A stretch of 64,000 nt of DNA, taken from positions 1 through 64,000 of IMG/VR virus record IMGVR_UViG_3300006921_000009. One strand, 5' to 3'. The translations under genes and the position numbers were made by a program. Shown here in pieces: positions 2 to 61,064 of this stretch. The notes under the pieces were generated by a model, which made no database searches, had not been told where the DNA came from, and saw only the letters and a program-made list of their open reading frames with translations. Each line of letters starts with the position of its first letter. Position 1 is the stretch's first letter. Source of the stretch: a virus.

Positions 2-1108
2 CTTAGTGCTAACGGAGTAACACTAGAGCAAGCTAAAGCTGCAATACCTGGTTTAGGCGGTAAGATAAAAGATTGGTTTCAAAGAGGTGTTGACTATTTA
101 GAACCAACACAACAAAGTAGTGAGGTTGAATTAAAATACTCACCTGTAAATATGTCTGGGTATGGAAAATCTTATAAACAGGAAGATATATCTGAAGGAG
201 GTAAAGAAATAATATTTAATCCTTACAAGCAATTATTTAAAATAAATGATGGTGTTTTATCTGCTAATATAGATGATATAGATGGTAAAACTTTTTATCC
301 AATATCTGTAGATCTTAGTAATACTTCTGAATATTTAGATTATAAAGCAAAAAAAGATACACTTGATGCTGAAAGAAAAAGACTAAGAGAAGCAGGGGAA
401 AAAGGTATTGAAGATATGCTTAGGGGAAAGGGAGCATCTATGAGTCTAGCAACAAAACAAATGCTAAACTTATTGGGTAAGGAGCTTGGAAAGAAAAATA
501 GCATTGCCGCATTTAAAGGAGATACTTTATCTCAACCAACACAACAAGCTAGTGAGGTTGCAGCCGGTAATACTTACAAAGGTTTAAAAGTAATTAATAC
601 TACTGATATTGTAAACAAAGAAGGTAAGAAAGGAGCTGCACAATATAATGCATCTACTGGAACTATTAAAGTTAATAGAAGTTTCTTAGAAAAAAAGTTT
701 GAAGAAAAGGCTTGGACTAATCCTAGAGACTTAATAGAAACAATACATGGTGAAAAAATTAAAAATCCAGCTAATGCTTTACCTGCTGATCAGTTTAAGA
801 CTTATCAAGAATGGGAAAACTTTGTAATGGAACATGAAAGACAGCATAGTCTTTTGTCTAGAGCAGAGTTTGATGCTACTGTACCTTTTCAAACACATGT
901 ATCAGATTACGAGAATGAAATTAACCAACGTGCCTTAGCTAGTATAGAAGCAGACAAAACATCTGTAACAGCTAAAGATACTAAGTCAGTTTCAAATACA
1001 ATTGCAATGTTCCAAAAAGGAATTAAAGCAGAAAACAAAAAACAAATAGACGTAAAATACGTGGAAACAGTACTAAATAATGATGAATTTGATAGGAATC
1101 CTTGTTAA
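2..1108 (+). CDS. C-terminal part of a large virion cargo (ejected) protein, 5'-truncated by the window; contains a zincin-like HExxH motif
   Basis: Frame is open from position 2 (LSANGVTLEQ...), upstream of the listed ATG at 152; FVMEHERQH motif; lies directly upstream of the virion RNAP as in crAss-like phages. Confidence 0.7.
   Translation, partial: LSANGVTLEQAKAAIPGLGGKIKDWFQRGVDYLEPTQQSSEVELKYSPVNMSGYGKSYKQEDISEGGKEIIFNPYKQLFKINDGVLSANIDDIDGKTFYPISVDLSNTSEYLDYKAKKDTLDAERKRLREAGEKGIEDMLRGKGASMSLATKQMLNLLGKELGKKNSIAAFKGDTLSQPTQQASEVAAGNTYKGLKVINTTDIVNKEGKKGAAQYNASTGTIKVNRSFLEKKFEEKAWTNPRDLIETIHGEKIKNPANALPADQFKTYQEWENFVMEHERQHSLLSRAEFDATVPFQTHVSDYENEINQRALASIEADKTSVTAKDTKSVSNTIAMFQKGIKAENKKQIDVKYVETVLNNDEFDRNPC
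102..560 (+). repeat. 27-nt in-frame direct repeat (102-128 and 534-560) encoding a PTQQxSEV linker
   Basis: AACCAACACAACAA(AG/GC)TAGTGAGGTTG, 25/27 identical, 432 nt apart. Confidence 0.85.
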
Positions 1109-1115
1109 AAATTCG

Positions 1116-1123
1116 TATATTTG
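1116..1123 (+). promoter_or_regulatory. Bacteroidota sigma70-type -7 element (TAnnTTTG) upstream of the vRNAP gene
   Basis: TATATTTG in the short intergenic gap before ATG 1139. Confidence 0.6.
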
Positions 1124-1138
1124 TAAAAACTAAAATTC

Positions 1139-4100
1139 ATGAGCAAATTTTGTCCAAATAAAAATACAGCTGATTTTAAATCAATGTCAGCTGCACTAGG
1201 AGATAGCATAGCTACTTCTGTATGGTATGAGAATAGCGGTGAGCCAATCTGGAATAATCCAGATGGTTCGCCTTCTACCTTATGGAATGAGTTAACTAGT
1301 CATCCTGGTGTTAAAGATATGGAGCATGCTACTCAAATAAAGAGTAACATGTATACCAAGTCATTTAAGAATGCGTTCCCTAACAGAACATCTGAGCCTA
1401 CTATGGCAGAGCTAATGAACTTCATTAATAATAAGAATGAAGTAGCTGCTAGATTTGCGCTGTATCAGGAACTTAAACTTACTGACAAAAATGATCCAAC
1501 TAAGCCAATCAAATGGAGTGATACAACTGCTAACTATAAGAAAGTTCTTAAACTAGTACAGAAGATTAATTCAGGAGAAAGAGCTAATGCAAAGATCGTT
1601 AAAGTAGCGTCTGGTAATAAATCTTTTATTACTATCCAACTTACACCTAAGACTGCATTCACAACTGCAGAAGGTGACGTTACAGCATCTTTTGATGCTA
1701 AGACCGGTACTATTACTTTTGGTGAGAAAGGATTAACTGCAGAGACAGTTATCCATGAATTCGCTCATCCATTTGTTGATGCACTGGCTACAAACAATCC
1801 TAAATTATACAAAAACTTATTAGCTTCTATCAAGAAAGATTCTAATGTACCTGAAATTGCTAAGATCTTAGATCACGTAGCAACTAACTACAAAGGAAAC
1901 AAAACGATAGCAGATAAAGAATTACTTGCGTATACTATTTCAGAGTACGGTAAAGGTAACATTGATGTTTCTACAGGGACTAATACTAAAACAGCTATAA
2001 AAAGATTTTATGACTGGTTAAATAGCTTAGCCGCTGATGTAATAAAAGCAATCAAAAAAGATGGTACTATCTATGTTGATAGAATTAATCCTAAGACTCC
2101 TTATAATACAGTAGCTGATATCTTTACAGTATATTCAGAGTTAGGTACAATAGATTTATCTGCTTCGCCAGTTGTAGCTGAGTTAACATCTAAAGCTAAA
2201 ACAGATCCTAAGACTATAGCTCAAGCTAAACCTGTTATGTCTGCATTGCAGAAAAAGATGGCAGAGCGTAAAGCTAAAAGTACAAAAGAAGTTCCACCAG
2301 CTTATAAAATGGTAGAAACTAAAGATGCAGAGTTTGTTGATATTGTAGATGAAGCAAATCACATGTCTTCTTTACTACCTAAAGAAATAGCTACAGAGTT
2401 AACAGACGGATACGTTAAAGTACTCTCTGGAGGACAAGCTGTAGTAGGTATGTTTGAAGATGCTATGATTTCCTTATCTAAACAAGGACCAAAAGGTACA
2501 GCTTACCATGAAGGTTTCCACGCAGTATTTAGAACATTACTTGACGCAGATGCACAAGCAGCTTTGTATACAGAAGCTAAGGCAGAGTATGTAGATCCTA
2601 CAGCAAAAGATATTTTTGATTTACAGTTACAGCATAACATCTCTGCAGCAGAAGCTCAGAAACTTTACTATGAAGAGTTAATGGCAGATGACTTTGCACT
2701 TTTTATGTCAAACCCAGCTGAAGAGTTTTCTCCAGGTATTAGAGGTTTCTTTGAAAAGATAGCTAACTGGATTTCTGAAGTATTTAATAAACCAACAAAG
2801 AAAGATAAATTATTTAAAAATATAAGTTTAGGTAAATACACTAAACAGACTCCTAATATTACTAGAGGTATTGCTTACAAAGTACATCCTTTATTTAGTA
2901 TACAGGACGTTAATACAATTACAAGAGAGTTAGCATCAGTTGCTTTCCAAAATATAAATACAATAGATGACTTAAGAGCTAGTTCAGTTACTTTAAGTAC
3001 TATTGCAGATAGTATTACTGACTCTGCTATTGCTGCAGAAGAAACAGGAAACACGGAATTAATAGAAAGATTAGAATTACTGTTTGATCAGGAGACTGGT
3101 GAAATTGATATGTTCTGGTTAAAAGAAGTAGATGCTTACTTACGTAACTCTTTAGGTCTTGTAACTAAAAGAGCAAAGAAAGAACAAAAGATTACAGAAG
3201 ATTCTCAAGAAGAACTAAGTGATGAAGATTTAGATAAAGGTAATTTCCTTAAGTCTTCTTATGAGATATCAGGTAAAACTAATGCTACTGCTGCAGTTAA
3301 GTTTTTAGTTGCTATGACTCCTAAAATGGAACTAATCAACAAAGCTAAACCAGCTACAATAGAGAACATGACACAAACTCTAAGTCCTTTAACCGGTCTT
3401 CCGGTATTAGTTGACTTTGGTATGTTCTACAATGATGTAGAGAATAGTTTATCTAATATTGTTAGTACAAAGGTTAAAGGTGTTCCTACAGATCCATTGG
3501 CTACTATGTTACTTGAGTTAAAAAAACAATCTAAGTATAAGCCAGAGATGTTAACATTGGCTGCTAAGATTGAAAACGCAAGTGAAGAAGTTAGAACACA
3601 ATTCTTTAAAGCTTTTTCTAAGAACAAAGGTAGTTTTGTACATCACCAAATTTCTAGTAATACATCAGCACAAGAGGTTGATAAAAAAATCTATAGCTCT
3701 AAACTAACTACTTCTAACTTTAGTACTAAGTCTACTATTATTACACAGAATTGGATACAAGGTTTTGCTAAAGCATTTTCTACGAGAGAAAACAACCAGG
3801 ATATATATGATGTAGCTAAGCAAGAAGTATTTGCATTAGAGTCTCAGTTGTTACGTAATGACATTGTACAATTTGTAAAAGAAACTACAGCAGGTGTTAA
3901 ACCAACAGTTAAGCCTTTAGCTACATTTACTAAAGTATTAAATAGCTTAGGTGTTACATTAAATCCTAATACTCTTAATTATATTATAGAAGAGAGATTA
4001 CAAACTGAAGAAGGTGTTTCTTATGAAGAATCTTACTCAGAAGCATTAGAGGATTTGTATTATGATTTTACACAGGCTACTAGAACATTAAAAGATAAGT

Positions 4101-7100
4101 CAGGTGATATATTTAATAACAATCATATTGCTGATGAAGGTAGTTTCTTTACAGGAGTTTTAGCTGAAGCTGAGGCTTACTTTAAACAACTTCCTGGTGA
4201 GAATGCATTTGTTGGACCAGATGGTAACACAATATATTCTTATCAAAATAATGATTCAGTATCTAAAACATTAGGTGCTATTAAGCAAGGTGATTTAACA
4301 CACTTAGAGAACGTAGCAAAGTCTGCTTACGGTAAACACTCTATCTGGACTAAGTCAATGCTAGATTCAGTTAACGGTTCTATTAACATTGAAGAGTTTG
4401 GTGTACATATGTACGGAAACTTGAAATCAGAGGCGACTGCTGGGGATAAAGGAGCTAAGGCTTCTGAGCTTAAACCTATTGATGCTTATATGGATCAAGT
4501 TAATAAACAACTTAGCGGTTATTATATTGGACTTGCAGAAGCAGATAAGTCTAGACAATCTTACTTTAAAGGACCTGAGTTATTAAACTCTGCATTTACT
4601 GTTAATAATGACAATAAATTTGTAATGTCAGTTAAAGGACAAGGTATGAAAGCAATACAGGGTTACTTAGCAGATGAGCTGTCGCGTATGAGCATTGCTC
4701 ATGATGTAGTGTACGGAACAGCCACTGCTGAGTCTCTTCCTGAAGAACAATGGATCTTAAACTACCATTACTACAATGCACCTAAAGATTATACAGGTGT
4801 ACGTATAGGTAAAGATGGCGATAAGATACCAGGTAATGCATTTCACAGTTTCTTATTCCCGGACATAAACTTAGAGAGTTTAGGTCTAAAGAATGCTAAC
4901 GGAACTATGAACGCTCTTAGTGATCAAAACTTTTGGAGTAGTAAACCTATTCAAGAAATGATTAAAACTAAGTTTGGTGCATTAGTACAAGATGAAATGG
5001 AACATGCTGCAAAGATTGGTCTATTAACTAAAAAAGAAGACGGTACATTTGAAAACAATTTAATTAGTGCTAGTATTATAACTAACCCATCTAAAAAATA
5101 TACACAAGGTGGAGCTGTTGACATAACAAGAGTAATGGCTGATTATGTTCTTAACTCTATAGTAGGTAACATTGAACAAACTAAATTGTTTAATATGGAT
5201 CCTGCAGGATATAAGGTTAAAGGTGTTGGTACAAAGAAATGGTCTGAAGTAGATCACTTTGGAGATTTTATGAAAAGAATCCCTGCAGCGTTTGCATCAG
5301 GACTTGATTATAGAATCTTTAACACTAAGGACGGTATACCAGTAGTAAGACCAACATATACATCGGCTACAATAGCTAACATTACTGTTCCTTCTGCATT
5401 TTTTGGAACTACTAATGAAAATGGAGATGTTTCTTTTAATAAAGATAACTTAAAAGAAGTAGCTAAAGTAACAGGTTTATCTATGTCAGAGCTGGAAGAT
5501 TTGTTTGCTCCTTACTTGGAGATTAACCAAACAGATGCCCAGGCTTGGATTACTTTAGATACATATAAAGAAAGATTAAATGGTACAGGACAATGGACTC
5601 CAGCACATGAAACTGCATATCAAGCAGCTATAGCCGGTGAACAATTGGATTCTGTCAATACTAAGTTGTTAGCTCAACCATTAAAGACTGTTCACGCAGA
5701 ACCTTATATGACTGCTAACAATGAGATGATAATGCAATACAACAAGCAATCAGAAGCTGTATTACTTCCGTTTATGAAGAACACGGAGTTAGGACAGTTG
5801 ATGAAAGCAATGGAAACAAAAGGAGTAGATCACGTTATTACTTTAGATGGTAAGAAAGCTGGTGCTTCTGGTATTGTTGATATTACAGATGAGAACAATA
5901 AAATTAAGCCTGCAGGTGACATTAAAATGAACCCTGTTAATCTTAGTTATAACTACTTATTCTTACAACAAGATTTACCAACTAAGCAAGTTAGTGCAAA
6001 GTTAGTAGGTTCTCAGATGAGTAAAAATGTTTTATCTGTTGTTAAATTAGACGGTGAATATTTTAATGACTTAAACGGACAAGAGGTAACTGATTTACAT
6101 CACGCTACTATAGGACGTTTATCTGATGCAGGACTAGTTGAACTTGATAAAAGTTTAGATTACAATCCTGAAACTAAGAGGTTTGGTTTTGAAACAGATC
6201 CTAATGCAACTTCTAAAGTACACAAAACTGTACAGAAAGAATTTGAAGGAGAAATTTCTGAAAACCACCAACAAGCATTAGAAGAAAACATTGCGTTTGA
6301 TGCATTACCAATTAAGACAAAAATAATGAACAAGTTAATGGCTCTTGTAACAAAGAAGACCGTTAAACTTAAACAACAAGGTGCATCTCTAATTCAGTTA
6401 TCTGATTTAGGTTTCTTAGGTTCAGAAGTTAAATTAAATGATAAAGTTAAAGACGGTATTGTTTGGTTTAAAGATCCTACAGAAAGATTGCAACCAATGC
6501 ACATTAAGGAAGGTGAAGTTAAAGCTGCACAAATCTTAATGCCACACAGTAAGATAGTTGATATGCTAGCTGGTTCATCTAAAAAAGCTATAGAAGCTCA
6601 AGATGCATTAGAAAAAGCACACGGAACTAGAAACTTTAAAGAGTTAACACACGAACAACTTAAAGATCTTATTGAAGGAGGAGTTTTAGAAGGATTAAGT
6701 TACCGTATTCCTAATCAGGGTCCATCATCTAATGATGCCTTTGAGATAGTAGGTATATTACCTGCAGAGATGGGAGATACAATGGTAGCCTTTTCTGATG
6801 TAACAACAAAGACTGGATCAGATTTTGATATTGATAAAGCGTTTGTTATGGTTCCTAATTTCTACTTTGATGCAAAAGCTGGTAAAGTTAAGAAAGTAGG
6901 TTATGACTTAAACAACCTAGAAGAGACAAGTAAAGCAGGTCTAGAGAATTTACGTTTAGATTTAGCAAGAGAGATGTTAATGCATCCTTCAGCTTATGCT
7001 TCTGTAATGGCTCCATTAGATGATCCATGGTTAGAGAAAGCAGCTAAGAATCTTTACCCAGAAGTTGGTGCAAAACGAGCTATGGAATTCTTTACAGGTA

Positions 7101-9142
7101 GAGTACAGTTAAATAATAAATCTACATTTGACGGTGCTAAGTCTTTGATTGGTGTAATTGCCAACCACATGACAAGTCACTCTTTATTTATGGTAGAAGA
7201 CATATCGTTTACTGATTACTACTTAGGGGTAGGACAAACAGGAAACGGTGGTAATACTACTTTATCTAATAAGTTTGATGTTAATGGTAAAGAGATTGCT
7301 GGTACACTAGGTGCATATATGAATGCAATTGTGGATGCTGCAAAAGATGCTTACATTAGTAGAGCAAACATTAACCAAACAACTGCAGGTACAGCATTTA
7401 TGTTAGCTAGAGCAGGTGTAGATAGAAACTGGATTAATGCCTTTATGGGTCAACCAGCTATTAAAGATTTAGTTGCAGCACAAGATGCAGCTGAAGGTAG
7501 GTTTGGTTCTCCTGTTTATGATGAAGTTAATCAGAAATATTTATCTGCTGTAGAAACTGTATTACGTAAATATGGTGAAACAGAAATGACAGATTCACAG
7601 TTTAGAGAGTCTAAAGCAGTAAAAGGATTAAGAAGAAGTAAGTCAGAATCTATTAAAGTATCTACTTCTGATTTAGAAACTGCAATATTAAACCCAGAGA
7701 AAAGTAAATTAGATCAGTTAGCTGTTCTTAAACAGTTCTTAGAGTACCAAGGACAGGCAGGACAATTAAATGAGGTAATTAAAGTATCTAAAGCAGATGT
7801 TGAAGGTGCAACTAAGAATATAGTTTCAGCTCACTTAGCTCTTAACTTAATGAAAAAGGTAACAGAAAATGATACTTTTACCGGGGTTAATGATTACTTA
7901 GGTGTAGACATGTCTGAATTGTCACTTACTTTTAAGCAAGGTGCTGAAGGTAAAATGATAGGACGTTACTTTGAGAATTCAGTAATAGGTGCACTAGAGA
8001 GATTTAGTAGATTCTTTATTGCAGGTTCTGCAGCATCTATGGAAACAATAGAAGGTGTAGCTGGTGCAGCTGGATATCAAAGTATGACTACTAATGCTGA
8101 CTTGGAAAGTTTAGCTTTTAGTATTTCTAATGAGGTTTATGCACATGCAGCTAGTAATACTAGAGCATTTAATATGAATCCTGAAGATTTACATACTCTT
8201 CTATACGGTAAAACAGGTCAACTATCTATAGCTGATAGAGTAACAAAGATGCAAAAAGATAGCAGCTTATCTGATAATCTATTACTTACCGGCTTACAAG
8301 TTAGGTCTGGACGTGATGGTGCTCCTGATAAAGTTATGTTACCTAATACAGAAACAGTTAAAGAAACAAAAGAAGGATTATATGCAGCATGGAATGAGCT
8401 TTTAGGTTCTGAAAATGCAGAAGTACGTGAGTTAGGTAGTGACTTAGCTAAGTACGCATTCTTTACTTCTGGTTTTTCTAAGTCAGTAGGTGATTTCTCT
8501 GAGCACATTCCTACGGAGTGGTTAAATGAAAGAGAATTTAATACAGATATACAAACTGCAAGACAAACTATGGATACTGATAGATATTCTTTACGGGAAA
8601 CTGAAGATACAATCTTTAAGAACCTTTACAAGAACAATCAATTAGTACCTGTTCTTAAAAGAGATTCTGCTAAACCAATAGTTTGGAAAGATGGTGGAGA
8701 TTTACAAGTACCTTTAGAAGATGCTTTTATGATTCCACAGTCTGATTCTTTAAATTATGCATTTGGTGAAGGACCTAACGGTAAAATCTTTAAAAGATTT
8801 GTTAAACGTTCGGTTCCTACTTTAAACCAATTTGGAGAGGTAACAGGTAAAGAGTATATGTTATACAAGTTAGCCGGGTACACTCATAACAAAGATGCGG
8901 TTTATGTAAGAACAAATACATTAGGTATATCCGGTAAAGGAAATAACGTTAAAGAGTATATTGGTAACCCAAACACTAGTATATTTGCTAAAAATAACGT
9001 ATCTTTGCCACAGGGGTTACAAAACCTTGTAGATGTATTAGAACAAAGAAGTATGAATCCAGAAAGTACTGAAATCAGTTTAGACGCCCAAGATAAAATG
9101 GGAGAAGTTGAAGACAGAGAGGTATTTTGTTTAATGAGATAA
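1139..9142 (+). CDS. Virion-packaged DNA-dependent RNA polymerase (crAss-like, phi14:2 gp66-type) with N-terminal zincin-like domains
   Basis: 2667 aa; catalytic TGSDFDIDK (DxDxD at 6821-6835) preceded by SYRIPNQG; HEFAH and HEGFH motifs in the N-terminal part. Confidence 0.9.
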   Translation: MSKFCPNKNTADFKSMSAALGDSIATSVWYENSGEPIWNNPDGSPSTLWNELTSHPGVKDMEHATQIKSNMYTKSFKNAFPNRTSEPTMAELMNFINNKNEVAARFALYQELKLTDKNDPTKPIKWSDTTANYKKVLKLVQKINSGERANAKIVKVASGNKSFITIQLTPKTAFTTAEGDVTASFDAKTGTITFGEKGLTAETVIHEFAHPFVDALATNNPKLYKNLLASIKKDSNVPEIAKILDHVATNYKGNKTIADKELLAYTISEYGKGNIDVSTGTNTKTAIKRFYDWLNSLAADVIKAIKKDGTIYVDRINPKTPYNTVADIFTVYSELGTIDLSASPVVAELTSKAKTDPKTIAQAKPVMSALQKKMAERKAKSTKEVPPAYKMVETKDAEFVDIVDEANHMSSLLPKEIATELTDGYVKVLSGGQAVVGMFEDAMISLSKQGPKGTAYHEGFHAVFRTLLDADAQAALYTEAKAEYVDPTAKDIFDLQLQHNISAAEAQKLYYEELMADDFALFMSNPAEEFSPGIRGFFEKIANWISEVFNKPTKKDKLFKNISLGKYTKQTPNITRGIAYKVHPLFSIQDVNTITRELASVAFQNINTIDDLRASSVTLSTIADSITDSAIAAEETGNTELIERLELLFDQETGEIDMFWLKEVDAYLRNSLGLVTKRAKKEQKITEDSQEELSDEDLDKGNFLKSSYEISGKTNATAAVKFLVAMTPKMELINKAKPATIENMTQTLSPLTGLPVLVDFGMFYNDVENSLSNIVSTKVKGVPTDPLATMLLELKKQSKYKPEMLTLAAKIENASEEVRTQFFKAFSKNKGSFVHHQISSNTSAQEVDKKIYSSKLTTSNFSTKSTIITQNWIQGFAKAFSTRENNQDIYDVAKQEVFALESQLLRNDIVQFVKETTAGVKPTVKPLATFTKVLNSLGVTLNPNTLNYIIEERLQTEEGVSYEESYSEALEDLYYDFTQATRTLKDKSGDIFNNNHIADEGSFFTGVLAEAEAYFKQLPGENAFVGPDGNTIYSYQNNDSVSKTLGAIKQGDLTHLENVAKSAYGKHSIWTKSMLDSVNGSINIEEFGVHMYGNLKSEATAGDKGAKASELKPIDAYMDQVNKQLSGYYIGLAEADKSRQSYFKGPELLNSAFTVNNDNKFVMSVKGQGMKAIQGYLADELSRMSIAHDVVYGTATAESLPEEQWILNYHYYNAPKDYTGVRIGKDGDKIPGNAFHSFLFPDINLESLGLKNANGTMNALSDQNFWSSKPIQEMIKTKFGALVQDEMEHAAKIGLLTKKEDGTFENNLISASIITNPSKKYTQGGAVDITRVMADYVLNSIVGNIEQTKLFNMDPAGYKVKGVGTKKWSEVDHFGDFMKRIPAAFASGLDYRIFNTKDGIPVVRPTYTSATIANITVPSAFFGTTNENGDVSFNKDNLKEVAKVTGLSMSELEDLFAPYLEINQTDAQAWITLDTYKERLNGTGQWTPAHETAYQAAIAGEQLDSVNTKLLAQPLKTVHAEPYMTANNEMIMQYNKQSEAVLLPFMKNTELGQLMKAMETKGVDHVITLDGKKAGASGIVDITDENNKIKPAGDIKMNPVNLSYNYLFLQQDLPTKQVSAKLVGSQMSKNVLSVVKLDGEYFNDLNGQEVTDLHHATIGRLSDAGLVELDKSLDYNPETKRFGFETDPNATSKVHKTVQKEFEGEISENHQQALEENIAFDALPIKTKIMNKLMALVTKKTVKLKQQGASLIQLSDLGFLGSEVKLNDKVKDGIVWFKDPTERLQPMHIKEGEVKAAQILMPHSKIVDMLAGSSKKAIEAQDALEKAHGTRNFKELTHEQLKDLIEGGVLEGLSYRIPNQGPSSNDAFEIVGILPAEMGDTMVAFSDVTTKTGSDFDIDKAFVMVPNFYFDAKAGKVKKVGYDLNNLEETSKAGLENLRLDLAREMLMHPSAYASVMAPLDDPWLEKAAKNLYPEVGAKRAMEFFTGRVQLNNKSTFDGAKSLIGVIANHMTSHSLFMVEDISFTDYYLGVGQTGNGGNTTLSNKFDVNGKEIAGTLGAYMNAIVDAAKDAYISRANINQTTAGTAFMLARAGVDRNWINAFMGQPAIKDLVAAQDAAEGRFGSPVYDEVNQKYLSAVETVLRKYGETEMTDSQFRESKAVKGLRRSKSESIKVSTSDLETAILNPEKSKLDQLAVLKQFLEYQGQAGQLNEVIKVSKADVEGATKNIVSAHLALNLMKKVTENDTFTGVNDYLGVDMSELSLTFKQGAEGKMIGRYFENSVIGALERFSRFFIAGSAASMETIEGVAGAAGYQSMTTNADLESLAFSISNEVYAHAASNTRAFNMNPEDLHTLLYGKTGQLSIADRVTKMQKDSSLSDNLLLTGLQVRSGRDGAPDKVMLPNTETVKETKEGLYAAWNELLGSENAEVRELGSDLAKYAFFTSGFSKSVGDFSEHIPTEWLNEREFNTDIQTARQTMDTDRYSLRETEDTIFKNLYKNNQLVPVLKRDSAKPIVWKDGGDLQVPLEDAFMIPQSDSLNYAFGEGPNGKIFKRFVKRSVPTLNQFGEVTGKEYMLYKLAGYTHNKDAVYVRTNTLGISGKGNNVKEYIGNPNTSIFAKNNVSLPQGLQNLVDVLEQRSMNPESTEISLDAQDKMGEVEDREVFCLMR

Positions 9143-9149
9143 TTGAGAT

Positions 9150-12100
9150 ATGGCAAGAAATGTAGTATGTGTCAAGGCTAGCCAACAGGCTGGCTTTGAT
9201 AAGCTAGTGGAGTTACACAAAGGTAACTCTACTTCTGCCTTTCAGGAGTTTGAAGATAATAATTTTCAAGTACCTGATAGAGCAATGGCGTTAGTCCAGG
9301 AAGATGTGACTAACAATAAGTTTGTATTAGAAGATGAAATAGAAGTTAATCCTGTAGCGATAGAGAAATCTAGAGCACTAGCTAAAGCTAAAGCAGCGAT
9401 GACTTCTAAGATTAAGAAGCTAGAAAATACAAAACACAAAGGTCTTAAAGATGTCCGTAAAGAGATGATGGATATTATGGATGAAATAGATGAGGTAGAG
9501 ACTGAAGAAAGTCTTATAGCCTTTGTACAAACCGCTGAGAACTTGAGTAAGTCTGCTGAAAGGTGGATGTCACAGTTTAAGTCTGGTGAGAAAACACCTA
9601 CTCTAGAGAACCTAAGAAGAATTAAAGAAGCTATTACAGCATTTGATTTATTACAGGATCTAAAAGAAGAGTTATTTGAAGAAGGTAAACGTACAGAATT
9701 ATTTGAATCTGTAGATGCAACTACTACGAGGTATGATAAAGTAAACAAAGATTACTTAACATTATCACGTAAAGTACTAGCTAAATCTTTACAGGGTAAC
9801 TTCCATAAAGTTACTAAATTGTATGAAAAGCAAGCAGAGAAGTTGTTTATACAACACAAGCGTCCACACTTAGATAAGGCAGAAATACCACAAGCACAAG
9901 CAGATTTTATTGCTAAGTATATGATAGCCAATGCAACTGACATTGAATTACGTACTATGCAGTACATTGAGAATATGTTATTGCAGTCTATTGATATACC
10001 AGCTTTAGCCTCTTGGGTAGTTAACCCTAAAGATTTGAATAATGATATTATCGGTATTGCTTTAGAGAGTCTAGAAGAAACAGATATGAAGATCTGGAAC
10101 ACTATGGAGACTATTGTAGATGATGTAGAAGAATTGAATGAAGAGTTTATTAACTATGTTGGTAAGACTAGTGATATGAAAGTTCAGTATGAGTTACTTT
10201 TAGAAAAAGATACTGAAACAGGTGAGGTTCTTCCAACAATGATCAATAGAGGTTCCCCAGGATGGCAACAGTTTAAAGCTAAATATGAGTCTGTACCAGC
10301 TGTTTGGAACTTGTATGAGCAATTAGATAAAATGGTTAACGAAAAAAATAAGATGGTTTACCATAGTGCTAGACTAGATTATACTTTACCTATGATTGAA
10401 CAAACAGGTGTAGAGCGTTTATATGACCAAGGTGTTGTTTCTTTTATTAAAGACGGTGTTGGTGATATTTATAAACTAAGAGCTAAAGATGTTGAGTTAG
10501 GTAATATATCTGACGAGCAACTTAACCAATCTAAACTTGATAATGCTACTGAAGTAGAGGATGTTTATATTACTGAAGCAGGTGAAGAAAGAGCTACTAT
10601 ACCTTTACACTATAGAAACACAACTATAGAAGAAGAAAAACAATCTTTTGATGTAATGAGAGCTATGGTATTAGATTATCATAATTCTTTAAAGTTCCAG
10701 GCTAAGACTGAGAACGCAATATTTTTAGATGTACTTAAAGATGTTGTACATGAATCAGATATAGTTGCTACTACAAACTTTGTACAGAAACTAAAAAGAA
10801 ATAAAGAGACAGGACACTTACATACTGAATCACGTGATAAAGTATCTAATTTAGAAGGTGTACTAGAAGCATTGATTAGACATAGAATATACGGTATTAA
10901 GATTGAAGGAGATCCTAAAACTGCTAAGATGATGCAAAGTTTAGCTAAGTATACTTCTTTCCTTACAATGAGTGTAAATACTATGTCAGGTATATCTAAT
11001 ATGCTACACGGTACTACAATGTCTTGGATTGAATCATTTGCTGGACGTGGAGGATATTTTTCTCCTAAAGACAGAGTAAAAGCTGTAGGACAATATAACA
11101 AAGATGTTATAAACATGTTAGCAGATGTAGGTGAAAGAAGACCAAAAAGTAAAGTTAATCTTTTAAATAGAAAGTTTAACATTATGTCAGAATCACATTT
11201 GTTAAATGGTAAATCTTTTGCCCAGAATAATAAGATTAAACGTATTGCTGAAAGTTCAGCCCTTATGTTTGCTAATGGTGCTGGAGAGCATGCTATGCAA
11301 AGTATAGTTATGTTATCTACAATGAATAATATCAAAGTTAAAGATGTTAACGGTAGTTTTTTAAATAAAGAATTTCAACCAACTACAGACAGAAATGAAG
11401 CAATTGGTATTGAAGAAGCAATGTTGAAAAACGAAGATGGAGCTTTAGAATTTCATCCTAGTGTTAACAGTACTGAGCGTACTAAAGGTGTAGGACAAGA
11501 AGACATCACTAAGATATCTAAATATATTAGACGTATTACACGTGACTTATATGGTAACTACGCTGCTGAAGATAAAGCACGTTTCCAAAGACATGCTGCA
11601 GGAGCAATTACTTCCCAGATGCGTGGTTGGTTGGTCACAGGTGTACAAAAACGTTGGAGAGGTTTAGGTGCTACTCAAGCTGGACGTAAAGGTTTTACTA
11701 AAGTAGGAGAGAAGTTTAACATTGATCTTAGTACTGTAGAAGGTTTGCACCAAGCACAGAAACTAAGTTTTAATAATGAGATAGATGACTTTGAAGAAGG
11801 TCAATATGTAACTACATTGTTATTCTTACAGACTGCAAAAACAGAAATTAAAGCTCTACGTTCTTTAGCAGGTACAACGGAAGCGTGGAATTCTATGGAT
11901 GACCAACAAAAACGTAATGTACGTAAGACTGTTATGGAGTTAGGTTTAATTGTAGGTTTCTTATTATTAGCCAATATGTTTGAAGATGATAAAGAAGACC
12001 CGGATGATATAGCAAATATGTATGCTGCTTATGTAACACGAAGAATGTATTCTGAGCTATTTACTTTTGCTAATCCTAGAGAGGCAATGAGAACATTCAG

Positions 12101-12299
12101 ATCACCAGCAATTGCGTTATCTTCTGTAGAGAATGCTCTTGATGTTACAACACAATTGTTTGACCCAACTGCTACATACAAAGGTGGAAGGCACAACAAA
12201 AAGAACAAACTAATAAGGAAAGTTAAGAAGATGATTCCGGTATTAAAACAAATAGACCGTAATGTTGAAGATTCTTACATGTTCTTAAAAAATAGTTAA
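9150..12299 (+). CDS. Large virion cargo (ejected) protein following the vRNAP
   Basis: 1049 aa, helical and coiled-coil rich, hydrophobic segment near the C-terminus (ELGLIVGFLLLANM); position matches the crAss-like giant-protein triad. Confidence 0.65.
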   Translation: MARNVVCVKASQQAGFDKLVELHKGNSTSAFQEFEDNNFQVPDRAMALVQEDVTNNKFVLEDEIEVNPVAIEKSRALAKAKAAMTSKIKKLENTKHKGLKDVRKEMMDIMDEIDEVETEESLIAFVQTAENLSKSAERWMSQFKSGEKTPTLENLRRIKEAITAFDLLQDLKEELFEEGKRTELFESVDATTTRYDKVNKDYLTLSRKVLAKSLQGNFHKVTKLYEKQAEKLFIQHKRPHLDKAEIPQAQADFIAKYMIANATDIELRTMQYIENMLLQSIDIPALASWVVNPKDLNNDIIGIALESLEETDMKIWNTMETIVDDVEELNEEFINYVGKTSDMKVQYELLLEKDTETGEVLPTMINRGSPGWQQFKAKYESVPAVWNLYEQLDKMVNEKNKMVYHSARLDYTLPMIEQTGVERLYDQGVVSFIKDGVGDIYKLRAKDVELGNISDEQLNQSKLDNATEVEDVYITEAGEERATIPLHYRNTTIEEEKQSFDVMRAMVLDYHNSLKFQAKTENAIFLDVLKDVVHESDIVATTNFVQKLKRNKETGHLHTESRDKVSNLEGVLEALIRHRIYGIKIEGDPKTAKMMQSLAKYTSFLTMSVNTMSGISNMLHGTTMSWIESFAGRGGYFSPKDRVKAVGQYNKDVINMLADVGERRPKSKVNLLNRKFNIMSESHLLNGKSFAQNNKIKRIAESSALMFANGAGEHAMQSIVMLSTMNNIKVKDVNGSFLNKEFQPTTDRNEAIGIEEAMLKNEDGALEFHPSVNSTERTKGVGQEDITKISKYIRRITRDLYGNYAAEDKARFQRHAAGAITSQMRGWLVTGVQKRWRGLGATQAGRKGFTKVGEKFNIDLSTVEGLHQAQKLSFNNEIDDFEEGQYVTTLLFLQTAKTEIKALRSLAGTTEAWNSMDDQQKRNVRKTVMELGLIVGFLLLANMFEDDKEDPDDIANMYAAYVTRRMYSELFTFANPREAMRTFRSPAIALSSVENALDVTTQLFDPTATYKGGRHNKKNKLIRKVKKMIPVLKQIDRNVEDSYMFLKNS

Positions 12300-20091: not shown

Positions 20092-20864
20092 TATGATTTC
20101 ATTAATATTAAATACTCTTCATACTTATCACCTAGTTTAGCGTAAGCATTTTTAATAAATGAGTTATCATGAGAACCAGTTAAATCTAGATCAACGCTTT
20201 GTGCATAACCTAAATGATAATGGTGTACCCATTGTCTAAACTGATTTCCCTCTAGCCTATTAACAAATATAGAATCAGGTTTAATAGTAGGTACAGTAAT
20301 TAACTGAATACCATCAAAGATAGCATTAGCTATTCTGTCCTGCTCTGTCATTAGAATTTTACATTCTCTCTCATTTGTCATAAAAGCACATTCTATAAGT
20401 ACAGCTGGACAATTAGTCCGTGTAACCATAGCAAATCCTGCTTCTTTAAGCCCACGCATTCTAAACTCCGTCATTTCTTTTAAGTACTCATCGGCTAATA
20501 TCTTTGCAATTGCATCAGATTTAGTTTCCCCTCTAGAAGTATAAATAGAAAATCCGTTAGCTGACTCCTTATTGAATGCATCAGCATGTACAGATATAAG
20601 AATAGCATCTGGATTGTTTTTGTATAGTGAATTAGCCCTACGACACCTTTCTGATAGTGAGATATCTTCCCACTCTGGTACAATAAGTTCACAAACTATC
20701 CCTGCATCATCACATAACTCTTTAATTCTAGAAGTGATTTCTCTATTAAATACGCCTTCAAATAACTGCGTACCATCACTCCATACTGGTGATCTTTTAC
20801 CAGGTGTCACATAAACCCCAGTTTCAGGGTTTAGTGCACCATGACCATTATCTAATATAATCAT
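20091..20864 (-). CDS. N-acetylmuramoyl-L-alanine amidase (Amidase_3)
   Basis: LDNGHG, E, ISVHAD, PAVLIECAFM zinc-amidase motifs. Confidence 0.9.
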   Translation of the reverse strand: MIILDNGHGALNPETGVYVTPGKRSPVWSDGTQLFEGVFNREITSRIKELCDDAGIVCELIVPEWEDISLSERCRRANSLYKNNPDAILISVHADAFNKESANGFSIYTSRGETKSDAIAKILADEYLKEMTEFRMRGLKEAGFAMVTRTNCPAVLIECAFMTNERECKILMTEQDRIANAIFDGIQLITVPTIKPDSIFVNRLEGNQFRQWVHHYHLGYAQSVDLDLTGSHDNSFIKNAYAKLGDKYEEYLILMKS

Positions 20865-60482: not shown

Positions 60483-61064
60483 ATGGCAATAGCAACATTA
60501 ACCTCTAACATTAGGGCTTGCTTTGATACTGGCTGTACGACATTAAATATTTATGACACTACAGGCGTAGAATCAACAGCAAACTCAGGTGGATGGGGAG
60601 CAACAAACATTAATACTGCAGATGTTACAGGCGCAATTATAACTTACACTACTCCAGGAGGGTCTCCAGTAGAGGTAGATGTAACAAGCGCAATTACTTC
60701 ACAAACAACTGTAGGATGTGAATTCCTTTTAGCTAGTATTGAATTACCGGCTTTAGATGGAGACTACGACTTTTCTTACGCAGTTACTGCGGCAAGTGGG
60801 ACAAAAACTAAAACAATCAGCATACTATCATTATGTGTAGTAAGATGCTGTATAGATAAATTATGGGCAAAAGCTGCTCTAGGCTTAATGGAAGAAGACT
60901 GTAACTGTGTAGATGATAAAACATCTTATACAAACCGTGCTCTAGTAGCAGAGGCAACTTACAGAGCTATTCTAAGTGGAACATCTTGTAACAATACAAA
61001 TGCAAGAGCTGCTCTACTAGCTAAGCTACAAAGAATATGTAAATTAGAAAATTGTAATTGTTAA
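60483..61064 (+). CDS. Cys-rich structural protein (probable start MAIATL at 60483)
   Basis: The listed upstream start lies inside the terminator; ends CKLENCNC. Confidence 0.6.
   Translation: MAIATLTSNIRACFDTGCTTLNIYDTTGVESTANSGGWGATNINTADVTGAIITYTTPGGSPVEVDVTSAITSQTTVGCEFLLASIELPALDGDYDFSYAVTAASGTKTKTISILSLCVVRCCIDKLWAKAALGLMEEDCNCVDDKTSYTNRALVAEATYRAILSGTSCNNTNARAALLAKLQRICKLENCNC

What the first reader, a model, noticed from the sequence alone, without database searches (positions are those of the whole stretch)
1103..9170. Cysteines only at abutting termini of the three giant ejected proteins: a possible disulfide-linked ejection chain
Seen (manual scan of the translations): the visible ~368 aa of the upstream protein has a single Cys, its very last residue (RNPC, 1103-1105). 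The 2667-aa vRNAP has only two, C5 (1151-1153) and C2664 (9128-9130). The 1049-aa protein has only one, C7 (9168-9170), and none at its C-terminus. So across ~4000 residues, Cys occurs only at the C-terminus/N-terminus junctions of consecutive genes. Established: injected virion proteins such as N4 vRNAP are Cys-free, and crAss-like cargo proteins are thought to pass unfolded through the tail. Inference: terminal Cys pairs could join the proteins head-to-tail (A-C to B-N, B-C to C-N) in the oxidised virion. They would then thread out as one ordered chain and be released by cytoplasmic reduction.
Basis: partly seen in the sequence, partly recalled or inferred. Interest (0 to 1): 0.82.

Follow-up and report, generated by a model that had tools for sequence, protein, structure and literature searches.

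The report
Terminal cysteines chain crAss cargo proteins
In this marine crAss-like phage the three giant proteins packed into the particle (its RNA polymerase is the middle one) have no cysteine except one at each end that faces the next protein, and relatives keep such a pair at every real protein break and lack it wherever the genes are fused, which points to untested end-to-end disulfide links.

Summary
Protein A (1,792 aa if the contig is circular) has one Cys, its last residue. The virion RNA polymerase B (2,667 aa) has Cys5 and Cys2664. Protein C (1,049 aa) has Cys7. About 60 Cys would be expected at the genome's own rate.

The pattern holds across the order and in the related Flavobacterium phage Fpv1. 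In 66 lineages, 45/46 A|B junctions, 59/59 B|C junctions and 2/2 true B splits carry a Cys on both sides. None of 106 control junctions does. phi14:2, crAss001, Suoliviridae and Intestiviridae fit. A~B and B~C fusions lack the junction pair, and two of the three A~B~C triple fusions have no Cys at all. Breaks caused by group I introns have no pair. On a tree of the B core, N-terminal Cys tracks the unfused state in 9–10 of 10 independent contrasts.

A solved precedent exists. In cyanopodophage A4, gp27 Cys1715 and gp26 Cys5 form a disulfide, and I confirmed each is that protein's only Cys. They show no sequence similarity to the crAss proteins.

Head-to-tail disulfides are the best reading (about 0.62). 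Bond formation, single-thread ejection and reductive release are untested. I found no paper describing the rule in crAss-like phages. This scan has already noted it in more than 120 other genomes.

The parts
2..1108 (+). C-terminal 368 aa of cargo protein A (counterpart of phi14:2 gp67 and crAss001 gp47). The gene starts at genome position 83034, at the other end of the contig, and is 1,792 aa in all.
   Evidence: BLASTP links it to phi14:2 gp67 and crAss001 gp47-type proteins in 40+ loci.
1103..1105 (+). TGT codon for the only Cys of protein A, its last residue (...DRNPC)
   Evidence: It is the only invariant column in the alignment of 41 A tails (A2).
1139..9142 (+). Protein B, the virion RNA polymerase (2,667 aa), homologous to phi14:2 gp66
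   Evidence: PDB 6VR4, E 4.9e-116; tblastn to phi14:2 g066, 8e-98.
1151..1153 (+). TGT codon for Cys5 of B (MSKFCPNKN)
   Evidence: Invariant in A1 (29 full-length homologues) and the only invariant column in A3 (41 B heads).
6821..6835 (+). Catalytic DFDID motif of the vRNAP (residues 1895-1899)
   Evidence: D1895, D1897 and D1899 are invariant in A1. The motif is described in the phi14:2 gp66 paper.
9128..9130 (+). TGT codon for Cys2664 of B, fourth residue from the end (...EVFCLMR)
   Evidence: Invariant column in A1.
9150..12299 (+). Cargo protein C (1,049 aa), counterpart of phi14:2 gp65 and crAss001 gp49
   Evidence: BLASTP to C-type proteins in nearly all loci.
9168..9170 (+). TGT codon for Cys7, the only Cys of C (MARNVVCVKASQ)
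   Evidence: An N-terminal Cys is present in 59/59 C proteins that follow a separate B.

Best explanation
A, B (the virion RNA polymerase) and C are the three RNA-polymerase-associated cargo proteins that crAss-like phages pack into the particle. Selection has removed cysteine from them, as it has from the ejected proteins of other podophages. It has kept exactly one Cys within a few residues of each terminus that faces the next protein in the series.

The most likely reason is that these pairs form inter-protein disulfides in the mature, extracellular particle: A-Cys1792 with B-Cys5, and B-Cys2664 with C-Cys7. The three proteins would then be tied head to tail into one unbranched thread of about 5,500 residues. 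This thread would be the non-genetic equivalent of the single fused polypeptides that some relatives encode.

Shown here: the sequence rule, its conservation, and its co-variation with gene architecture.

Inferred: that the bonds form; that placing them at the very ends keeps the chain threadable N-to-C through the tail in gene order (A first, then the polymerase, then C); and that thiol reductases in the host cytoplasm then separate the parts.
For: 1. Pattern in the window.

2. Conservation. The same pattern occurs in phi14:2 g067/g066/g065 and in crAss001 gp47/gp50/gp49. It also occurs in cr128_1, four Suoliviridae, Intestiviridae LMMB and crAss002, and Flavobacterium phage Fpv1. Nearly all of the 118 database homologues of B show it.

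3. Invariance. Cys5 and Cys2664 are invariant like the catalytic Asp residues. In A tails (11% mean identity) and in B heads, the terminal Cys is the only invariant column.

4. Junction tally in 66 lineages below 80% identity: A|B 45/46, B|C 59/59, genuine B|B splits 2/2. Control junctions score 0/52 (upstream cargo|A), 0/50 and 0/4.

5. Distribution. In 167 complete proteins, 209 of 238 Cys lie within 12 residues of an end. Internal Cys frequency is 0.009%.

6. Architecture follows the rule. A~B fusions keep only the C-terminal Cys. B~C fusions keep only the N-terminal Cys, apart from a few internal Cys in some. Of the three A~B~C fusions, P0107 and P0111 have zero Cys and P0113 has one internal Cys. 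Split B (L010, L056) gains a pair at the new break.

7. Negative controls. Breaks inside the DFDID motif in L070, L075 and L082 are group I introns and have no pair (Rfam RF00028, 85 bits, E 3e-22; LAGLIDADG ORFs).

8. Independent contrasts on the B-core tree. The fusion state changes at least 14 times. N-terminal Cys goes with the unfused state in 9-10 of 10 independent pairs and never the other way (sign test p about 0.002-0.004). For B~C the count is 4 of 4.

9. The signal is at protein level. In crAss001 and cr128_1, A lies on the opposite strand from B and C. In L041, C lies about 6 kb downstream.

10. Precedent. The cryo-EM structure of phage A4 shows a disulfide between gp27 Cys1715 and gp26 Cys5 (PMC12002296). 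In the A-4L genome these are the only Cys of a 1,717-aa and a 1,114-aa protein.

11. crAss001 virions do contain inter-subunit disulfides, in the tail and in gp57.
Against: There is no direct evidence of any kind for the bonds in a crAss-like particle. The cargo proteins are not resolved in the crAss001 map.

Many relatives live in the anoxic gut, where oxidation of virion thiols is not assured.

One A protein (L049) has its Cys at -32 rather than within 12 residues.

Two database homologues, P0081 and P0116, lack the N-terminal Cys. Their gene neighbourhoods could not be fetched.

Some lineages carry several internal Cys: L015 B has 7, and the LMMB B~C fusion has 7.

The phi14:2 authors assumed that fused forms are cleaved into their components. 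If that is true, fused forms would end up unlinked.
Confidence: 0.62

Rival explanations
1. The junction Cys pairs lock a folded assembly inside the capsid and have no role in threading. This would resemble the A4 pre-ejectosome ring, where the tail helix of one protein docks into the next. The pairs would serve co-packaging at a fixed 1:1:1 ratio and stability of the internal body, and the proteins would separate before or during ejection.
For: In A4 the disulfide stabilises a C-terminal helix inserted into a cleft of the partner, within a five-fold ring. Bayfield et al. suggest equal numbers of the three polymerase-associated proteins, for example 6 of each. The fusion and split rule fits this reading as well as it fits a thread.
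Against: The Cys sit almost at the very ends: the most common position is 3 on the N side and -2 on the C side. The surrounding tails are unalignable, at 11% identity. That fits a minimal tether better than a conserved docking interface. Natural single-chain fusions show that a covalently continuous A-B-C is compatible with ejection.
Confidence: 0.2
2. The paired terminal Cys join the proteins through something other than a disulfide, for example a bridging metal ion or another thiol-based link.
For: The pairwise co-variation shows only that the two Cys act together. It does not show what chemistry joins them.
Against: Only one Cys is contributed per terminus. No conserved His, Asp or second Cys lies nearby: the tail and head alignments have no other invariant column. 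Fusions remove Cys in twos, so the unit is a pair and not a four-Cys site. In the only solved analogue the link is a disulfide.
Confidence: 0.07
3. Each terminal Cys binds some other partner, such as portal, capsid or tail proteins or a second copy of itself, and not the neighbouring cargo protein.
For: crAss001 uses many inter-subunit disulfides in the tail and at the portal vertex. In Intestiviridae the first cargo protein also has a lone C-terminal Cys with no obvious partner on the next protein.
Against: This does not explain why both Cys at a junction vanish together on fusion and appear together on splitting. It also does not explain why A never has an N-terminal Cys and C never has a C-terminal one.
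Confidence: 0.05
4. The terminal Cys are nucleophiles for protein processing or ligation, in the manner of an intein, a sortase or autoproteolysis. That chemistry would make or break peptide bonds between the three proteins.
For: Cys at extein and intein boundaries is a hallmark of protein splicing. The literature speaks of a 'polyprotein' that is 'likely cleaved'.
Against: Pfam and PHROGs find no Hint, intein or protease domain in A, B or C. The Cys lie 1-12 residues from genetically encoded ends, leaving no room for intein halves. Fused forms have no Cys at the junction where a cleavage nucleophile would be needed.
Confidence: 0.03
5. The pattern is chance, a gene-calling artefact, or a nucleotide signal at gene boundaries.
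For: None found.
Against: The probability by chance is about 4e-10 in this window alone. The pattern is conserved in 66 lineages. The start codons are tightly bounded by stops. The rule holds when A is on the other strand, or when C is kilobases away.
Confidence: 0.01

Closest known systems
Cyanopodophage A4 (Anabaena phage A-4L) pre-ejectosome pair gp27-gp26, with the Cys1715-Cys5 disulfide seen by cryo-EM (PNAS 2025, PMC12002296)
   Same: Two consecutive large ejection proteins each have a single Cys. One lies 3 residues from the C-terminus of the upstream protein and the other at position 5 of the downstream protein, and they are joined by a solved disulfide. Even the local motifs resemble this window's A|B junction...DNPCQF with MSKHC..., against ...DRNPC with MSKFC...
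   Different: BLASTP detects no sequence similarity to the crAss proteins. A4 has one link between two proteins, none of them an RNA polymerase, in a folded five-fold ring. The paper does not describe a family-wide rule or any link with gene fusion and splitting.
RNA-polymerase-associated cargo block of Crassvirales: phi14:2 gp67-gp66-gp65 and crAss001 gp47-gp50-gp49 (Drobysheva 2020/2021; Bayfield 2023, PMC10172136)
   Same: The proteins are homologous, and the gene order muzzle, cargo 1, cargo 2, A, B, C is the same. They are detected in virions and thought to be ejected partly unfolded. They show the same terminal-Cys pattern.
   Different: Neither paper mentions these cysteines. The disulfides reported for crAss001 are in the tail and in gp57 only. 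Fused forms were assumed to be cleaved.
Cys-free ejection operon of Schitoviridae (N4 gp50 vRNAP, gp51, gp52; DEV gp71-73; PMC11445570)
   Same: Giant virion-packed RNA polymerase and its partners are strongly depleted of Cys. This is interpreted as an adaptation to passage through the envelope.
   Different: The N4-type proteins have essentially no Cys at all, and the polymerase is one 3,500-aa chain of a different fold. Here the equivalent mass is divided into three chains that keep Cys only at the facing ends.

Membership tests
Crassvirales RNA-polymerase-associated cargo block (A / vRNAP B / C) | B is homologous to phi14:2 gp66 and has the catalytic DFDID motif | tested here: met
   PDB 6VR4 E 4.9e-116. 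DFDID lies at residues 1895-1899. D1895, D1897 and D1899 are invariant in 29 homologues.
Crassvirales RNA-polymerase-associated cargo block (A / vRNAP B / C) | Gene order muzzle protein, cargo protein 1, cargo protein 2, A, B, C at the end of the virion module | tested here: met
   Pfam crAss_MUZ E 3.4e-150 and crAss_CARG1 E 4.2e-08 lie directly upstream.
Crassvirales RNA-polymerase-associated cargo block (A / vRNAP B / C) | A and C are homologous to phi14:2 gp67/gp65 and crAss001 gp47/gp49-type proteins | tested here: met
   BLASTP with window, phi14:2 and crAss001 queries labels A and C consistently across 80 loci.
Crassvirales RNA-polymerase-associated cargo block (A / vRNAP B / C) | The proteins are present in the virion and delivered into the host | not testable with these tools
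   Known by mass spectrometry for phi14:2 and crAss001 only. This phage is an uncultured marine contig.
Disulfide-linked consecutive ejection proteins (A4 gp27-gp26 type) | A lone Cys within a few residues of the C-terminus of the upstream protein and of the N-terminus of the downstream protein, in proteins otherwise free of Cys | tested here: met
   Window. A-4L: gp27 has only Cys1715 of 1,717 aa, and gp26 has only Cys5 of 1,114 aa.
Disulfide-linked consecutive ejection proteins (A4 gp27-gp26 type) | A physical disulfide between the two termini in the mature particle | not testable with these tools
The test needs non-reducing gels, cross-link mass spectrometry or cryo-EM.
Disulfide-linked consecutive ejection proteins (A4 gp27-gp26 type) | Sequence homology to A4 gp27/gp26 | tested here: not met
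   BLASTP of A, B and C from the window, phi14:2 and crAss001 against A-4L gp26-gp29 gave no hit better than E 0.05. BLASTP of all locus ORFs gave three short hits of 33-47 residues at E 0.004-0.009.
Cys-free ejection proteins of Schitoviridae (N4 type) | Complete absence of Cys | tested here: not met
   Four terminal Cys are present and conserved. Interior Cys are depleted to a similar degree, at 0.009%.
Split intein / protein trans-splicing | Hint-domain halves flanking the boundary Cys | tested here: not met
   Pfam finds no domain in A, B or C. The Cys lie 1-7 residues from the encoded ends, which leaves no room for intein halves.

The most novel reading that the evidence does not exclude
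A, B and C are a redox-severable polyprotein. In the extracellular particle, two terminal disulfides make them one unbranched thread of about 5,500 residues. The thread would leave the tail N-to-C in gene order, like the single-chain N4 polymerase or the natural A~B~C fusions. The host's cytoplasmic thiol reductases would then cut it into its three parts. Arrival in the reducing cytoplasm would thus be the signal that frees, and perhaps activates, the virion RNA polymerase, with no protease needed.
Probability: 0.35. Interest if true: 0.85.

Novelty: new variant of a known kind. Interest (0 to 1): 0.78.

Why it matters
[quoted passage not shown] A conserved rule of one Cys pair per protein break gives a concrete, cheaply testable answer about the order and connectivity of the cargo.

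The rule would also explain why fused, split and three-gene architectures are interchangeable in evolution. It links crAss phages to the one solved case, A4, and suggests that a redox boundary can replace proteolytic maturation.

The rule has practical uses for annotation. It tells true protein boundaries from intron breaks and frameshifts, and it flags wrong start codons, as in crAss002 gp33.

Tried and rejected
- Pfam and PHROGs give no family for A, B or C. C has no match among solved structures.
- BLASTP of A tails, B heads, B tails and C heads onto fused proteins, meant to see what replaces the Cys at a fused junction, found no informative alignment. The ends are too divergent.
- My first criterion for A~B fusion, more than 1,800 aa upstream of the core, wrongly counted five B proteins with long N-terminal extensions (P0046, P0048, P0050, P0052, L015). 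It was corrected before the final test.
- The apparent exceptions in L012 are frameshifts, because homology continues upstream of the called ATG.
- A nucleotide-level signal at gene junctions was rejected on the crAss001 and cr128_1 strand arrangement and on L041.
- A four-Cys metal site was rejected because Cys are gained and lost in pairs.
- Sequencing-run search: no RNA holder was listed.
- The first literature query was swamped by Neurospora crassa papers.
- NC_024711 is not in the phage collection, so CrAssphage LMMB was used instead.
Full report
**What is in the window**

The ORF listing and direct translation confirm three consecutive + strand genes. An ORF open at its 5' end runs 2..1108; its 368 visible residues hold one Cys, the last residue (...DRNPC, TGT 1103-1105). 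ORF 1139..9142 (2,667 aa) has Cys only at 5 and 2664. ORF 9150..12299 (1,049 aa) has Cys only at 7. All four codons are TGT.

The window is the first 64 kb of an 87,304-bp single contig. Read as a circle, the first gene starts at genome position 83034 and encodes 1,792 aa, with still only the terminal Cys. A 53%-identity alignment with the A protein of locus L031 runs without a break across the join, so the join is sound.

The starts of B and C are tightly bounded. The nearest in-frame stops lie four codons and one codon upstream, with no other start codon between.

**Identity of the proteins**

- B matches the solved phi14:2 virion RNA polymerase gp66 (PDB 6VR4, E 4.9e-116; tblastn 8e-98). 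It carries the DFDID catalytic motif at residues 1895-1899.
- Directly upstream of A lie a muzzle protein (Pfam crAss_MUZ, E 3.4e-150), a cargo-protein-1 homologue (crAss_CARG1) of 722 aa, and a 738-aa protein. The last two have no Cys at all.
- This is the canonical crAss order: muzzle, C1, C2, then the three polymerase-associated proteins.
- The DNA occurs in marine and seawater metagenomes.

**Is it more than chance?**

The other 67 ORFs of the genome have 1.08% Cys. That predicts 59.5 Cys in the 5,508 residues of A+B+C, against 4 observed (Poisson P about 8e-21). Given 1, 2 and 1 Cys, the chance that all lie within seven residues of the terminus facing the neighbour is about 4e-10.

**Conservation**

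- The closest viral contig (L001, 62% identity in B) repeats the pattern exactly.
- phi14:2, at about 26% identity, does too. g067 (1,797 aa) has only its last residue as Cys, g066 has Cys3 and Cys2179 of 2,180, and g065 has only Cys3.
- In crAss001, gp47 has only Cys at -3, gp50 has Cys5 and Cys at -9 plus one internal, and gp49 has only Cys5. gp47 lies on the opposite strand, so this is a property of the proteins and not of the DNA between genes.
- Of 118 database homologues of B (22-100% identity), nearly all have a Cys at position 3-8 and another within the last eight residues, and most have no other.
- In an alignment of 29 diverse full-length homologues, Cys5 and Cys2664 are invariant, like the catalytic aspartates.
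- In alignments of 41 A tails (mean identity 11%) and 41 B heads, the terminal Cys is the only invariant column.
- The rule also holds in human-gut Suoliviridae (cr50_1, cr118_1, and the stop-codon-recoded cr113_1 and cr4_1). It holds in Steigviridae cr128_1, Intestiviridae (CrAssphage LMMB, crAss002) and Flavobacterium phage Fpv1.

**Junction tally**

Eighty related loci were fetched from viral contigs. Their large ORFs were labelled A, B or C by BLASTP and clustered at 80% identity into 66 lineages.

| Junction type | Cys within 12 residues on both sides |
|---|---|
| A\|B, separate proteins | 45 of 46 |
| B\|C, separate proteins | 59 of 59 |
| Genuine B\|B splits (L010, L056) | 2 of 2 |
| Control: upstream cargo\|A | 0 of 52 |
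| Control: other neighbouring large ORFs | 0 of 50 |
| Control: C\|downstream | 0 of 4 |

The one A|B exception, L049, has its Cys at -32.

Over 167 complete proteins (312,726 aa), 209 of 238 Cys lie within 12 residues of an end, a zone that holds 1.3% of all residues. The interior Cys frequency is 0.009%. The commonest positions are 3 on the N side and -2 on the C side.

**Architecture test**

This is the strongest evidence for who pairs with whom.

- Where A and B are one polypeptide (3,500-4,950 aa, many lineages), the protein has no N-terminal Cys but keeps the C-terminal one, and C keeps its N-terminal one.
- Where B and C are fused (L019, L028, P0074, P0102, P0104, P0108, LMMB), only the N-terminal Cys remains at an end.
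- Of the three A~B~C triple fusions, P0107 (4,596 aa) and P0111 (4,631 aa) have no Cys at all. P0113 has one internal Cys.
- Where B is split into two proteins, the new break carries a new pair (L010, L056).
- Three lineages (L070, L075, L082) have B interrupted inside the catalytic TGSD/FDIDK motif with no Cys at the break. These breaks are group I introns (RF00028, 85 bits, E 3e-22 in L075; intron halves around a LAGLIDADG ORF in L070), so they make no protein ends.
- The apparent exceptions in L012 are frameshifts.

On a FastTree phylogeny of the B core (175 rows), the A~B fusion state changes at least 14 times. In 10 phylogenetically independent pairs on supported branches, the N-terminal Cys goes with the unfused state in 9-10 and never the other way (sign test p about 0.002-0.004). 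For B~C the count is 4 of 4.

The Cys therefore come and go in pairs, junction by junction. That excludes B closing on itself and excludes a single four-Cys site. It leaves A-tail with B-head and B-tail with C-head.

**Precedent**

The paper reports a disulfide between Cys1715 of gp27 and Cys5 of gp26 in the pre-ejectosome (PMC12002296). In the A-4L genome, gp27 (1,717 aa) has only Cys1715 (...DNPCQF), gp26 (1,114 aa) has only Cys5 (MSKHC...), and gp29 has none. The geometry is the same as here, and even the local motifs resemble this window's ...DRNPC and MSKFC... BLASTP finds no similarity between the A4 and crAss proteins.

crAss001 particles do contain inter-subunit disulfides, in the tail and in gp57. 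Schitoviridae ejection proteins are known to be Cys-free.

**Mechanism**

Shown: the sequence rule and its co-variation with protein boundaries.

Inferred:
- In the extracellular particle the facing Cys oxidise to disulfides, tying A, B and C head to tail.
- Because the links sit 1-12 residues from the ends, the product is effectively one linear chain. It could pass constrictions partly unfolded, N-to-C, in gene order. That direction is what Bayfield et al. proposed for gp45.
- Interior Cys are excluded to avoid wrong links in the particle and in the periplasm.
- In the reducing cytoplasm the links open and free the polymerase.

The first point has about 0.6 probability. The others have less.

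A rival of real weight is that the links lock a folded internal body, as in A4, and serve co-packaging at a fixed ratio rather than threading.

**Caveats**

- There is no physical evidence for a crAss phage.
- Oxidation is uncertain in the anoxic gut.
- Copy numbers are only estimated.
- A few lineages tolerate several interior Cys.
- Two database proteins, P0081 and P0116, lack the N-terminal Cys, and their context could not be fetched.
- The phi14:2 authors assumed that fused forms are cleaved.

**Novelty**

The phi14:2 polymerase preprint (no 'cysteine' or 'disulfide'), the crAss001 atlas ('cysteine' 0 times, disulfides only in the tail and gp57) and the 2026 N4 paper do not mention the pattern. 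Four further searches of the library found no paper that does. The library covers open-access PMC and bioRxiv only.

This scan itself has reported the same rule on other DNA. A word search returned 136 notes in at least 122 genomes. I set the scores on what I tested here.

I class it as a new variant of a known kind. The known kind is a disulfide between consecutive, otherwise Cys-free ejection proteins (A4). The new elements are an order-wide chain of three proteins that includes the virion RNA polymerase, and its strict coupling to gene fusion and fission.

Noticed in passing
L075:13695-13972; L070:11683-12585; L082:13427-14359: In three related lineages the vRNAP gene is interrupted exactly inside the catalytic TGSD/FDIDK motif by a group I intron. 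L075 has an ORF-less intron (RF00028, 85 bits). In L070 and L082 the gap encodes a LAGLIDADG-type homing endonuclease, and Rfam found intron pieces on both sides of it in L070; L082 was not searched with Rfam.
   Followed up: partly
window 2-1108 plus genome 83034-87304 (A residues 1379-1617): A 240-aa stretch near the C-terminus of A is 53% identical to the A protein of L031, a phage whose vRNAP is only about 26% identical. This suggests a domain exchanged between distant crAss lineages. Pfam gives no family for it.
   Followed up: partly
window 1103-1153 compared with L085 (Anabaena phage A-4L gp27 end and gp26 start): The junction motifs of this phage (...DRNPC and MSKFC...) resemble those of the structurally proven A4 pair (...DNPCQF and MSKHC...), although the proteins show no BLASTP similarity. 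This could be convergence or very deep homology.
   Followed up: partly
L091:1864-4449 (CrAssphage LMMB) and L092:2093-3766 (crAss002): In Intestiviridae, the protein two genes upstream of A, at the position of cargo protein 1, also has a single Cys near its C-terminus (-2 and -8). The next protein has no matching N-terminal Cys. Its partner, if any, is unknown.
   Followed up: no
L092:12788-12890 (crAss002 gp33): The annotated start of crAss002 gp33 is probably 32 codons too far upstream. An internal Met33 is followed by Ser-Cys, the usual 'MSC' head of B proteins.
   Followed up: partly
L012:13930-14010 and 20100-20150: This viral contig has two breaks in the cargo genes where homology continues upstream of the called ATG. 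These are frameshifts, either sequencing errors or pseudogenes, and not real protein boundaries.
   Followed up: partly
window 1754-1768 and 2507-2521 (B residues 206 and 457); window 833-847 (A residue 1702): HExxH motifs occur in the N-terminal part of B (HEFAH, HEGFH) and in the tail of A (HERQH). Protein C has none, although phi14:2 gp65 is described as carrying a zincin-like domain. Conservation was not examined.
   Followed up: no
window 60483-61064 (+): A 193-aa ORF in the virion module has 12 Cys (6.2%), the highest density in the window. Pfam gives no family. It may be one of the disulfide-rich tail parts known from crAss001.
   Followed up: partly
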